From Amoebidium appalachense (lineage: Eukaryota > Protista > Ichthyosporea): a stretch of DNA of 64,000 bases. Shown piece by piece: positions 382-63,744 of this stretch (position 1 is its first letter; each line of letters starts with the position of its first letter). The translations under genes and the position numbers were made by a program. The notes beneath the pieces are model-generated. The model saw only the letters and a program-made list of their open reading frames with translations. It made no database searches and was not told the origin of the DNA. The stretch covers positions 2,780,342-2,844,341 of the forward strand of contig CAVNZM010000005.1 in assembly GCA_963693365.1 (NCBI GenBank), given 5' to 3'.

Positions 382-3300
382 GGAAAGAGGGTAAAGCTTT
401 TCGAGGATATATGGATCAGGAAAAAATGAGAGAGACGAAGGGGTGCATGTACGTGCCTGTGTGCAACAGCGTGCACACATGACTGGTAAACTTTGCGTGT
501 TTCTGAGCATGGAACGGTTTGTGCATGTGTGTGTGTGTGTGTGTGTGTGTGTGTGTGTGTGTGTGTGTGTGTGTGTGTGTGTGTGTGTGTGTGTGTGTGT
601 GTGTGTGTGTGTGTGTGTGTGTGTGTGTGTGTGTGTGCAGGTGGGTGATGTCGCTGAGTGTTTGGCAGTGTCTGGCCGTGTTTGTGTGTGTGTGTGTGTG
701 TGTGTGTATGTGTATGTGTGTGTGTCTGTGTGTGTGTGTGTGTGTGTGTGTGTGTGTGTGTGTGTGTGTGTGTGTGTGTGTGTGTGTGTGTGTGTGTGTG
801 TGTGTGTGTGTGTGTGTGTGTGTGTGTGTGTGTTGTACCTGTTTGTTTTCATGTTTTGGAAGGGGGTGGGGGGTGGGGGGGAAGGGGGGGGGGGGAAGGC
901 AAGGCCTATCATAGCACGGGTACAGTTATCATTTTGAGAGGGGAAAACGAAGGGAAGTAAGCTGCAAATGTGTGGCATACCTGGAATATTGCACCCTCGA
1001 CTCACTCATTGATGGGTTGGGTTTGTGTGTGCTCCCAACAGCAGCAGCAGTTCTGAAGACGGCCGTGAGCCATCGCCATGATAAACATCCAAGTACCTGT
1101 CCCGGGCTTTCTGTGAGTACCTTCTGTTCGTTTGTGAGAACATGTATGGTTAGAGCAAGTTTGTGCATTATTCTAGTTTACAGGCAAGTTGTCATTTCCG
1201 CCTTGCTTGTCCACCACTTCCTAACATAGCTAAGCAATGAACCATTGCAAGTTCCCTTTGTCTTTTGCATATCAGCTTGCTTGGGTGCACCTGCATCATA
1301 TGTTTCGTGCATTGTTGCCTCTGCATACAACAATATACTGTCGAAATCTGACCATGTGATGCAGGGGGGAGAGTCTCGCGGACCGTATATGTGTTGCCTA
1401 CAGCGCCTTCGAGGTGCTCAAGACAGCCACGGACGCCGTCCAGGACAAGTGGCTAAACTCCGATCCCCCCCCCCCCCTCCCCCCCCCTCCTCCCCCCCTC
1501 CCCCTTTCTCTTTCTCCCCCCCCCCCCCCCCCCCCCCCCCAAACACACACACACAAACTCTTGATTGTGACTGCCCGTCTCCTCCTTGCACTCGGTAACC
1601 ATCTTCCTCTTTCCACCTGCCCTGGCCCCCAGTGTACCGTTCCACTCTGGCAGAATGGTGAAAACCATCACTGAAGAATCACCACTGTTTTTCCACGTGT
1701 GAGCAAAAAGATCGCTGGAAACTTTGAGTAGGAGAAAAGAGAACCGTTAAAGAATGCTTGGGGTGTGCATCTAAGGGTTGGGTGCTTCAACGGGTCCATG
1801 TGTAGGGTTGGTTGCTGGTATGTGCATGTGTAGCCTGGCTGAGTGCTTGCATGCATGTGTAGCCTGGGTATATGCTTGTGTGCATGTGTAGCCTGGTTAT
1901 ATGCTTGTGTGCATGTGTAGCCTGGTTATATGCTTGTGTGCATGTGTAGCCTGGTTATACGCTTGTGTGCATGTGTAGCCTGGTTATACGCTTGTGTGCA
2001 TGTGTAGCCTGGTTAAACGCTTGTGTGCATGTGTAGCCTGGTTAAACGCTTGTGTGCATGTGTAGCCTGGTTAAACGCTTGTGTGCATGTGTAGCCTGGT
2101 TAAACGCTTGTGTGCATGTGTAGCCTGGTTAAACGCTTGTGTGCATGTGTAGCCTGGTTAAACGCTTGTGTGCATGTGTAGCCTGGTTAAATGCTTGTGT
2201 GCATGTGTAGCCTGGTTAAATGCTTGTGTGTATGTGTAGCCTGGTTAAACGCTTGTGTGCATGTGTAGCCTGGTTAAACGCTTGTGTGCATGTGTAGCCT
2301 GGTTAAACGCTTGTGTGCATGTGTAGCCTGGTTAAACGCTTGTGTGCATGTGTAGCCTGGTTAAACGCTTGTGTGCATGTGTAGCCTGGTTAAATGCTTG
2401 TGTGCATGTGTAGGGGCTGCGCATTGCCTAAGATCTGTATTCTCCCTCGATAGTGGGTGGTTGACACATACCCCATTGGTGGTCTGCTTGCTGACATGTC
2501 GGCATATGTCACCCACAGGATCGTCGAGGAGGCAATGGGGTTGACTGAAGAGATAGCAAAGGGCAATGGGGTTGACTGAAGAGATAGCAAAGGACCCGTA
2601 CATGGCGTTCCTGATGAACCTGGAGGGGTAAGAACATGTGAATTTCTTCCCAAGTGCTTTCCCTTCTTCTCCGAGTCCTAGCCCCAACTTCCTTCCAACG
2701 TTCATTTAACTTGGTTCTCAACACGTTGCCCCCTCCCCCCCCCCCCCCCCCCCCCCCCCCCCCCCCCCCCCCCAATCACACGTACCCCACACCCCTACAC
2801 CCACACACACACACCTCCCCCCCCCCCCCCCCCTTCCAAAAAAAAAAAAAAAAAAAAAACACACACACAGACATACACACATCCCCCCCCCCCCCCCCCC
2901 CCCCCCCCCCCCCCCCGCAAAACAAAAAAAAAGAAAGAAAGAAAGAAAAGAAAAAAAAGAGGGAGGGAGGGAGGCAGGGAGGGGGTAGGGGGGAGGAGGG
3001 AGGGCGGGAGGGAGGGAGGGAAGGAGGGAGATGGTGAGAGAAAGAAGAAGAAAAAGAAGAAAAATAGGAAAGACAAGGGGGAAGACAAGATCAACGAACA
3101 CGTCACATTCTTCCCGACACCACCTCCCGTGACTCCACCAAAAGTCTTAGCCAATCGTACCACACACACAGACACACGTGCACGCCCCCGGCACACACAC
3201 ACACACACATGCAGACACGTACACACACGCACGCACGCACACACGCACGCACACGCACACACACACACACACACACACACACACACACACACACACACAC

Positions 3301-3783
3301 ACACACACACACACACACACACACACACACACACACATCCCCTCCCCCTCCCTCCCACCCACCCACACACCAAGTTCACTGCATGCAGCCCACAGCTGTG
3401 CCACTACCGTTTACCCCCCCCCCCCCCCCCCCCCCCCCCCCCCCCCCCAAAAAAAAAAAAAAAAAAAAAAAGCCACCCACCTTCCCGGCAAGCCCGCCTG
3501 CACATGCAAGACAGAAAAAAGCAACACTGTCTCGTGGAGCGCAAAGCATCTCTTATTGCACAACACACCCACCTATACAAATCCAGGCACTTGTCCATCC
3601 ACACACAAACCCTCACCCATATGCAACAGGCTACTGTACTCCCCGTAAACACTAACTAAACCCTTACCATGTTATGTTCACAGCCCAGGCACCCCGAGTC
3701 ATAACGGCCAGACTGGCGTTTCAACTTGTGGGGGGCAGGACGGCAACCCTATGGCCATGACCATCTGCGGGGGTCAGGAATAA
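382..3783 (+). CDS. 3' part of an unknown spliced gene; exons 382-448, 1365-1448, 2519-2627, 3684-3783 (5' end probably outside the window)
   Basis: AG/GT-bounded, phase-compatible exons read [108 protein letters not shown] (TAA 3781-3783). The third exon is in frame only if one copy of an internal 31-bp duplication is discounted. No domain recognised. Confidence 0.55.
1822..2413. repeat. Intronic minisatellite, about 20 copies of a 29-bp unit GTGCATGTGTAGCCTGGTTAAACGCTTGT
   Basis: Head-to-tail units with no spacers; left-hand units are diverged. Confidence 0.95.
2531..2592 (+). repeat. Perfect 31-bp tandem duplication inside a predicted exon
   Basis: GGCAATGGGGTTGACTGAAGAGATAGCAAAG at 2531-2561 and 2562-2592. 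Confidence 0.95.
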
Positions 3784-63200: not shown

Positions 63201-63744
63201 GGGTGTGGTTGTGGGTGCCGATGTGCATGCCTGTGCTAACACCCGAGCACACATGTGTCTGCTTGTGGGTTCGTGTTTCCGTTTCTGCACTGTATCTGAG
63301 TGGTCCTTTCTTTTTTGCCTTCTCGAAAAAAGAGGGAGCGGAGAGGAGAGTGGGATGAAAGGAGAGAGAAAGAGAAGGGGAGAGAGGGGGAGGGAGGAGA
63401 AAGCAAGAAAGTGGGTGTGCGAGAGAAGAAAATTGGGAGGGAGGAAGGAAAGAGGAGGGAAGGTCACTTCATGTATGAAAACTTAGCACATTCACTTTGT
63501 ACCAGCTAAGATATAGACATGCCCAATATCGTGAAAACCAAAAACACTTGGTAGGCAAAGTGTTGACCAACTTATAGATTGGGTAGGCCCACAGCAGGCG
63601 GAGTGTGGTTCCCCCCGCCGGGGGGGGGGGGGGCGGGGAGGGGGCGGGAGGGGGGGAGGGGGAAAGATAACTCACTTCTGGGCACCGTTCTGGTTTAGGG
63701 GGCCGCATTCCATAGGTAGTGATGGCCTGAGCTATCTGCTTTGC
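57240..63744 (-). CDS. 3' part of a tyrosine-kinase/TKL-type protein kinase; exons 63744-63676, 63002-62898, 61809-61668, 61115-61072, 60234-60169, 59662-59579, 58978-58058, 57395-57240 (gene continues beyond the window)
   Basis: Subdomains X-XI GMRPPKPERCPE/ELYELLLLCWDKDPENRPPFVFI, then phase-compatible GT-AG exons for a long disordered tail (..RTYLDM..ETTYDEY..EIYDP..) ending ..FFNMTMQELDGIL* at 57240. Confidence 0.8.

What the first reader, a model, noticed from the sequence alone, without database searches (positions are those of the whole stretch)
1449..63675. C-runs immediately downstream of weak 5' splice sites on both strands
Seen: donors are often degenerate (GTGGGT, GTATAA, GTGGCT, GTGTGT, GTAAAA), and a C-run starts within about 6-20 nt. 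On + this follows exons ending at 1448, 8681, 11665, 12396, 13962, 14926, 17193, 20433 and 21297; on - it follows 63676, 61072, 59579 and 58058. Inference: a poly-C intronic enhancer, analogous to vertebrate G-runs after weak donors and possibly read by KH-domain PCBP/hnRNP K proteins, may pair with the (CA)n acceptor signal to form a repeat-based splicing code.
Basis: partly seen in the sequence, partly recalled or inferred. Interest (0 to 1): 0.75.

Follow-up and report, generated by a model that had tools for sequence, protein, structure and literature searches.

The report
Poly-C tracts marking intron starts
In two genes of a likely ichthyosporean (a single-celled relative of animals), most introns carry a run of C, or failing that of U, right after their start and almost none carry the usual pyrimidine tract before their end, so this tract likely helps the cell find intron starts, a variant of enhancers known from animals.

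Summary
I modelled 23 introns in two genes; 7 junctions are bridged by transcript-like contigs and 3 more match rotifer intron positions. A run of 5 or more C starts at +7..+25 in 15 of 23 (2.25 expected; 0 of 200,000 simulations), a G-run in 0 of 23. The eight donors without a C-run have U-rich flanks instead (p about 0.001). In all, 20 of 23 introns have a pyrimidine run of 10 or more behind the donor; only 2 of 23 have one before the AG, where the sequence is A/C-rich. The link to weak donors is only suggestive: U1-pairing energy p=0.11-0.16, post hoc motif tests p=0.002-0.006. No coupling with (CA)n acceptors and no base-paired bridging were found. Best reading: a donor-side C/U enhancer in the TIA-1/Nam8 position, with run length supplied by slippage; the binding protein is unknown. 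Poly-C at +10 already works as an enhancer in a human minigene, so this is a new variant of a known kind. Only two genes and one RNA sample were available.

The parts
1404..22150 (+). Gene A, LysM + TLDc (OXR1/NCOA7-like), 17 modelled exons, 16 introns. Exons 7610-22150 join to 606 aa without a stop; exons 1404-1448 and 2519-2627 are unverified.
   Evidence: Pfam LysM and TLD on single exons; open frame and BLAST hits; contigs; shared intron positions
57200..63744 (-). Gene B, C-terminal part of a tyrosine-kinase-like gene, 8 modelled exons, 7 introns; continues beyond the window end; lower bound approximate
   Evidence: frame open for 528 aa; weak Pfam PK_Tyr_Ser-Thr hit below the cut-off; a 6217-nt contig supports 3 junctions
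1465..1504 (+). C tract after donor 1448 (CAA|GTGGCT); junction unverified
8688..8711 (+). C tract after donor 8681 (GTG|GTATAA); junction 8681>9182 bridged by contigs
11098..11122 (+).
11673..11689 (+). C tract after donor 11665 (GGA|GTGGGT)
12406..12447 (+). C/CCA tract after donor 12396 (AAC|GTATGT)
13973..13991 (+). C tract after donor 13962 (CAT|GTGGGT)
14940..14979 (+). C tract after donor 14926 (CAA|GTATGT)
17201..17232 (+). C tract after donor 17193 (CTG|GTAAGC); intron position and phase shared with rotifer locus L081
20445..20497 (+). C53 after donor 20433 (CAC|GTACGT); intron position shared with L081
21312..21347 (+). C36 after donor 21297 (AAA|GTATGC); intron position shared with L081
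63620..63662 (-). C tract after donor 63676 (GAA|GTGAGT)
62858..62891 (-).
61048..61065 (-). C18 after donor 61072 (GAG|GTATGA)
59527..59570 (-). C/CCA tract after donor 59579 (GGG|GTATAA); junction 59579>58978 bridged by a contig
58018..58051 (-). C-rich flank (79% C) after donor 58058 (GAG|GTAAAA); junction 58058>57395 shown by contig loose ends
7895..7928 (+). U-rich pyrimidine flank (59% T, run of 24) after donor 7888, no C-run; junction shown by contig loose ends. Similar U/C flanks follow donors 2627, 9337, 16017 and 61668 (runs of 11, 11, 18, 13)
10410..10449 (+). Donor 10409 (AGG|GTGTGT) followed by GT repeats, no pyrimidine tract. With 13339 and 60169 it is one of the three exceptions, all of which have G at -1, G at +5 and T at +6
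8516..8575 (+). Example of a (CA)n acceptor; the same class precedes exons at 11536, 15886, 17106, 20284, 63002, 61809 and 59662 (8 of 23). All 23 acceptors end in CAG

Best explanation
In these two genes a pyrimidine tract, mostly poly-C and otherwise U-rich, lies 7-40 bases behind the 5' splice site while the 3' ends lack one, and it likely acts as an intronic enhancer bound by a C/U-tolerant protein that would steady U1 snRNP on the donor, in the position that TIA-1/Nam8 occupies in animals and yeast. Shown: the position, the strand bias, the C-or-U alternation, the missing 3' tract, splicing at 7 junctions, and that three C-bearing introns are old positions shared with a rotifer gene whose introns have no C-run.
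For: C>=5 at +7..+25 in 15 of 23 against 2.25 expected; G in 0 of 23; C fraction 0.60 at +21..+40, falling to about 0.27 by +150; 25 of 66 sense C8 runs lie in the first tenth of the intron, 2 of 26 G8 runs. Donor-like GT sites that are not donors carry the C-run in 24 of 420 (gene A sense), 3 of 76 (gene B sense) and 18 of 2006 (outside the genes), true donors in 13 of 21. Between the genes the runs are symmetric, 44 C8 against 46 G8. The 8 donors without a C-run have T 0.43 against 0.28-0.30 in matched controls, p=0.0004-0.001. Pyrimidine run >=10 behind the donor in 20 of 23 (4.4 expected), before the AG in 2 of 23 (4.6 expected). All 5 donors with -1G, +5G and +6T lack a C-run (p=0.002, post hoc). 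Precedent: TIA crosslinks peak 10-28 nt behind donors (PMC2964331, passages); poly-C and poly-U at +10 both raise SMN2 exon 7 inclusion with length (PMC8789036, section 18); TIA-1 RRM3 contributes to binding C-rich RNA (PMC7969032, passage); U-rich and G-rich donor elements replace each other in vertebrate evolution (PMC3606033, passages).
Against: Two genes, 23 introns, one RNA sample; 13 junctions rest on open frame, phase and length bookkeeping only. 8 of 23 donors have no C-run and 3 of 23 no pyrimidine tract at all. The planned test of donor weakness is not significant once limited to -3..+6 (U1 duplex p=0.11-0.16; hydrogen-bond count p=0.14); the p=0.017 included +7/+8, which the tract itself affects. 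The significant motif tests and the pyrimidine-run test were chosen after seeing the data. Intron interiors also lean to C (43 against 24, p=0.027), so part of the bias is not positional. Intron length does not differ (p=0.85). No close relative's genomic DNA was found to test conservation.
Confidence: 0.58

Rival explanations
1. No enhancer: slippage creates C/G runs everywhere, and selection merely removes the orientations that disturb a donor (G-runs that fold into quadruplexes, GU and AG repeats that make decoy sites), so C- and CA-rich sequence is what survives near splice sites.
For: Runs are abundant and symmetric outside the spliced genes (44 C8, 46 G8); sense strands prefer CA to TG (42 against 10) and C to G even in intron interiors. 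GTGTGT is a used donor here, so TG repeats are real decoys. G is depleted at +7..+40 (0.11 against 0.23).
Against: Avoidance predicts fewer G-runs, not six to seven times more C-runs than in the interior of the same introns, nor U-rich flanks in the remaining donors. One true donor is followed directly by GT repeats (10409).
Confidence: 0.18
2. One reading: PCBP or hnRNP K reads the poly-C specifically at weak donors, and the signal is coupled to (CA)n acceptors as a two-part repeat code.
For: Pure C-runs of up to 53 nt suit poly-C-binding KH proteins (recalled). All five measures of donor strength lean the expected way or are flat, and two post hoc tests are significant. PCBP1/2 enhance 749 human cassette exons with C-rich flanks (PMC4797308, passages).
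Against: No association of C-run with a (CA)n end in the same intron (5 of 15 against 3 of 8, p=1.0) or across the exon (p=0.40) (low power). U-rich flanks fill the same place. In the human data the PCBP effect maps mainly to the acceptor side.
Confidence: 0.13
3. The signal works as DNA: the G-rich template strand folds into a quadruplex, or the tract sets a nucleosome edge, so that RNA polymerase II pauses just after each exon and U1 gains time.
For: The C tracts give template-strand G-runs long enough for quadruplexes (sequence), at a fixed distance behind exons.
Against: It does not explain U-rich flanks in the same position, and equally long runs of either orientation lie in intron interiors and between genes. 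No chromatin or nascent-RNA data were available.
Confidence: 0.08
4. The tracts are left-overs of intron origin (an introner-like element with a C-rich start) or an assembly artefact of homopolymers.
For: The assembly shows duplications of 31 nt and 314 nt, so run lengths may be unreliable. Two donors (14926, 21297) share a similar 8-9 nt stretch before the C-run.
Against: Three C-bearing introns sit at the same column and phase as introns of a rotifer TLDc gene, whose 5 introns have no C-run. An artefact would not choose one strand and one end of transcript-confirmed introns.
Confidence: 0.03

Closest known systems
TIA-1/TIAL1 (yeast Nam8) U-rich enhancers behind 5' splice sites (PMC2964331, passages; PMC7969032, passages)
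   Same: Same position (crosslinks at +10..+28; tracts here start at +7..+25), pyrimidine-rich, also behind constitutive exons; RRM3 contributes to binding C-rich RNA.
   Different: Here C dominates, with pure runs of up to 53 nt, and the tract is present in 20 of 23 introns, whereas about 5% of human exons had a TIA crosslink cluster (different measures). No binding was shown here.
Poly-C intronic enhancer of SMN2 intron 7 minigenes (PMC8789036, passages and section 18) and PCBP1/2-dependent C-rich tracts (PMC4797308, passages)
   Same: Four or more C at about +10 raise exon inclusion in a length-dependent way, as poly-U does.
   Different: Engineered or minority cases in human cells; PCBP acts mainly on acceptor-side tracts. 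Here the tract is the default of constitutive introns, and the acceptor side has none.
Mammalian G-run enhancers read by hnRNP F/H, and U-rich to G-rich turnover (PMC3606033, passages; Xiao et al. 2009 seen only as cited there, its weak-donor result is recalled)
   Same: Homopolymer runs clustered behind donors, supplied by a genome-wide mutational process and then kept near the splice site.
   Different: Opposite base; G-runs are absent here (0 of 23); dependence on donor strength is not established here.
(AC)m-(GT)n bridged introns of fish and lamprey (PMC4691745, passages)
   Same: Simple repeats at intron ends; many introns without a polypyrimidine tract.
   Different: There the two ends pair. 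Here they are C-rich and CA-rich and do not pair better than shuffled partners (p=0.66), and CA lies at the 3' end.
A- and CA-rich acceptor regions of diplonemids (PMC12621601, passages)
   Same: CAG ends with A-rich rather than U-rich upstream sequence; CA-rich intronic motifs.
   Different: Unrelated lineage; no donor-side poly-C tract was described in the passages seen.

Membership tests
U2-type spliceosomal introns | GT..AG ends removed from the mature RNA | tested here: met
   23 of 23 modelled introns are GT..AG; 7 junctions are bridged or shown by loose ends in transcript-like contigs of one sample
U2-type spliceosomal introns | U-rich polypyrimidine tract before the AG | tested here: not met
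   pyrimidine run >=10 in 2 of 23, T5 in 1 of 23; A+C 0.71 against 0.53 in interiors
TIA-1/Nam8-type donor enhancer | pyrimidine tract about 10-30 nt behind the donor | tested here: met
   20 of 23 against 4.4 expected
TIA-1/Nam8-type donor enhancer | tract is U-rich | tested here: not met
   T 0.22 against 0.24 over all 23; U-rich only in the 8 donors without a C-run
TIA-1/Nam8-type donor enhancer | bound by a TIA-1/Nam8 protein that contacts U1-C | not testable with these tools
   no genome held, no binding data
G-run-like enhancer of weak donors | runs enriched on the sense strand just behind donors | tested here: met
   for C, not G: 15 of 23 against 0 of 23
G-run-like enhancer of weak donors | more frequent at weak donors | tested here: inconclusive
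   U1 duplex p=0.11-0.16; post hoc -1G/+5G p=0.006 and -1G/+5G/+6T p=0.002
PCBP/hnRNP K-dependent C-rich elements | splicing depends on a KH-domain poly-C-binding protein | not testable with these tools
   no proteome of the organism could be searched for KH families
Repeat-bridged introns (fish AC/GT type) | complementary repeats at the two intron ends that pair | tested here: not met
   own 5'/3' ends -36.5 against -38.7 kcal/mol for swapped partners, p=0.66
Introner-derived introns | recent, lineage-specific positions and similar sequence among introns | tested here: not met
   3 of the 4 gene A introns in the aligned region share position and phase with rotifer locus L081; the other introns were not tested for age

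The most novel reading that the evidence does not exclude
This lineage has turned the intron grammar round across its genome: the pyrimidine tract has moved from the acceptor to the donor and become poly-C, and acceptors are found without a U2AF2-type tract, by a branch point or a (CA)n repeat plus CAG. Microsatellite slippage would then have been recruited as the default splicing code of a close relative of animals, with rewired U1-helper and U2AF proteins.
Probability: 0.27. Interest if true: 0.78.

Novelty: new variant of a known kind. Interest (0 to 1): 0.52.

Why it matters
If it holds genome-wide, it shows that the position behind the donor accepts U-, G- or C-based signals depending on what a genome's mutation process supplies, extending the U-to-G turnover of mammals to a third base in a unicellular relative of animals with introns of 0.4-5 kb. 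It gives a natural, constitutive test bed for poly-C enhancers and for acceptor recognition without a polypyrimidine tract. It is also a practical gene-finding signal: 62% of true donor-like sites against 1-6% of decoys carry the C-run.

Tried and rejected
No whole genome is held, so the genome-wide metaplot could not be run. The run search listed no holder on record as RNA; two of three coded runs nevertheless gave contigs that skip the introns, and the third laid nothing. Two word-indexed searches with single exons found no spliced protein; 1 of 5 intronless proteins is in the collection, without a contig. A metagenome scan with a permease alignment gave 80 loci of 32-44% identity, no close relative; I did not analyse their introns. 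One of two look-ups of outgroup genes returned no DNA. Base-paired bridging and coupling to (CA)n ends were rejected. The first U1-energy result (p=0.017) was set aside because it included +7/+8. An alternation between (CA)n ends and a CTRAY branch motif was only a trend (1 of 8 against 9 of 15, p=0.07). Earlier findings of the scan: none for this genome or look-alikes; the 8 shown of 38 concern other genomes and were not used. Ten literature searches and word look-ups in two ichthyosporean genome papers showed no description of donor-side poly-C in ichthyosporeans. The library lacks most subscription journals, I read no supplements, and cross-species splice-site surveys that I recall (Schwartz 2008, Nguyen 2018, Yeo 2004) were not seen, so absence from print is not established.
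Full report
Setting. The window is eukaryotic, 52% GC and full of C, G, CA and GA runs. No whole genome is held. The best named relatives are ichthyosporeans: Ichthyophonus and Chromosphaera gene labels among the top permease hits, and an Amoebidium parasiticum protein as the best hit, 45% identical, to the TLDc domain. The lineage is therefore inferred, not shown.

Gene models. From frames and phases I built gene A (+, LysM and TLDc domains) and gene B (-, end of a tyrosine-kinase-like gene). Gene A exons 7610-22150 give 606 aa without a stop; gene B is open for 528 aa. 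Contigs of coded runs X1 and X2 (one sample; listed as 'RNA?') skip the introns. One search supports 59579>58978 by contiguous pieces and 60169>59662 and 58058>57395 by loose ends. Donors 17193, 20433 and 21297 fall at the same column and phase as introns of the rotifer locus L081 (3 of 4 gene A introns in the aligned region). By hand, the X1 contig holds 1364 nt after 10409 and my exons to the stop sum to 1212, which leaves room for a short 3' UTR but not for further large exons. Exons 1404-1448 and 2519-2627 are unverified. In all: 23 introns of 444-4982 nt, 10 with independent support; I chose the stretches to lay, so these 10 are not a random sample.

The observation. All 13 listed donors have the C-run, but 10 donors were left out, 8 of them without it. 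On all 23, a run of 5 or more C starts at +7..+25 in 15 (2.25 expected from the same introns' interiors; 0 of 200,000 simulations) and a G-run in none; thresholds of 4, 7 and 10 give the same picture. The supported subset gives 6 of 10 (p=8e-5), the unlisted donors 2 of 10 (p=0.11). C peaks at 0.60 at +21..+40 and is back near 0.27 by +150. Between the two genes C8 and G8 runs are equal (44, 46); in intron interiors C leads mildly (43, 24; p=0.027); decoy donors carry the run in 1-6%.

The 8 donors without a C-run have U-rich flanks (T 0.43 against 0.28-0.30 under three matched controls, p=0.0004-0.001; still p=0.001 without the GT-repeat case). A pyrimidine run of 10 or more lies at +7..+40 in 20 of 23 introns (4.4 expected), but before the AG in 2 of 23, no more than interior background (4.6 expected, p=0.10 for depletion). 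The acceptor side is A/C-rich (0.71 against 0.53) and ends in CAG in 23 of 23. This test was devised after seeing the data. So the feature is better described as a donor-side pyrimidine tract, mostly C, in introns that lack an acceptor-side one.

Weak donors and the CA code. With the U1 5' end (recalled motif), donors with C-runs pair more weakly (-3.7 to -3.9 against -5.7 to -5.8 kcal/mol) but not significantly over -3..+6 (p=0.11-0.16); consensus matches p=0.68, own-set weight matrix p=0.12. Post hoc, G at both -1 and +5 occurs in 2 of 15 donors with and 6 of 8 without a C-run (p=0.006; 0.02 with probable donor 1112), and all 5 donors with -1G, +5G and +6T lack it, among them the 3 with no tract at all (p=0.002). 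This is suggestive and uncorrected. C-runs and (CA)n ends are independent within introns (p=1.0) and across exons (p=0.40), and intron ends pair no better than swapped partners (p=0.66).

Mechanism. Slippage is strand-symmetric, as the intergenic counts show, and a transcription-linked bias would run along the whole intron, so a peak at one end of one strand points to selection at the donor (inference). The three old introns show that the tracts were laid into existing introns; the rotifer's 5 introns have none. The position matches TIA crosslinking at +10..+28 (PMC2964331, passages). Poly-C and poly-U at +10 are interchangeable, length-dependent enhancers in an SMN2 minigene (PMC8789036, passages and section 18). 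TIA-1 RRM3 contributes to binding C-rich RNA (PMC7969032, passage), while PCBP1/2 act chiefly on acceptor-side tracts (PMC4797308, passages). Vertebrate donor flanks switched from U-rich to G-rich elements as mutation supplied them (PMC3606033, passages). I therefore commit to a donor-side C/U enhancer that helps U1 recruitment, with seed selected and length drifting (0.58). Rivals: mere avoidance of G, GU and AG repeats (0.18); a PCBP-specific, CA-coupled code (0.13); a DNA-level pause (0.08); introner origin or artefact (0.03). Function and reader are untested.

Known and new. It works like TIA-1/Nam8 and G-run enhancers but fails their base-composition test, so it is not filed as either. 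It is not a fish-type bridged intron (PMC4691745, passages). A- and CA-rich acceptors have a precedent in diplonemids (PMC12621601, passages). Ten searches (listings only, apart from the papers named) and look-ups in PMC5560861 and PMC11244446 (passages) showed no account of this in ichthyosporeans; supplements and subscription journals were not seen. Verdict: a real, probably functional, lineage-specific variant of a known kind, resting on two genes; interest 0.52.

Noticed in passing
window 2531-2593: A 31-nt tandem duplication inside the putative exon 2519-2627 breaks the frame of gene A in this assembly; assembly error or allele, not checked.
   Followed up: partly
window 1078-1112 (+): Probable first coding exon of gene A (ATG at 1078, donor TCT|GTGAGT at 1112, no C-run). 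Adding it gives 15 of 24 and weakens the post hoc tests to p=0.02 and 0.003.
   Followed up: partly
all 23 acceptors: All end in CAG, 16 with A at -4; 8 end in (CA)n, and most of the others have a CTRAY branch-like motif 17-45 nt upstream (trend only, p=0.07).
   Followed up: partly
all 23 donors: Local consensus GTR(T/A/G)GT with T the commonest base at +4 (10 of 23) and no T at -3.
   Followed up: no
window 7330-7380 (+) and 47850-47900 (+): AG|GT sites followed by a C-rich tract, one inside the 5-kb intron of gene A; possible recursive or unannotated splice sites.
   Followed up: no
window 24618-26411 (-) and 33323-35110 (-): Two intronless APC amino-acid permease genes, 97% identical, 8.7 kb apart; best hits 62-66%.
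   Followed up: partly
window 52942-53904 (+): Intronless ROK-family sugar kinase; the exact protein is in EukProt.
   Followed up: no
window 41037-43247 (-): 736-aa reverse-transcriptase ORF, likely a non-LTR retrotransposon.
   Followed up: no
window 43705-44241 and 48709-49254 (+): Two similar intronless cysteine-containing ORFs of about 180 aa; the first has no Pfam hit.
   Followed up: no
window 1860-2400 and 30800-31400: A 29-nt minisatellite in gene A intron 1449-2518 and a 314-nt tandem duplication between the permease genes.
   Followed up: no
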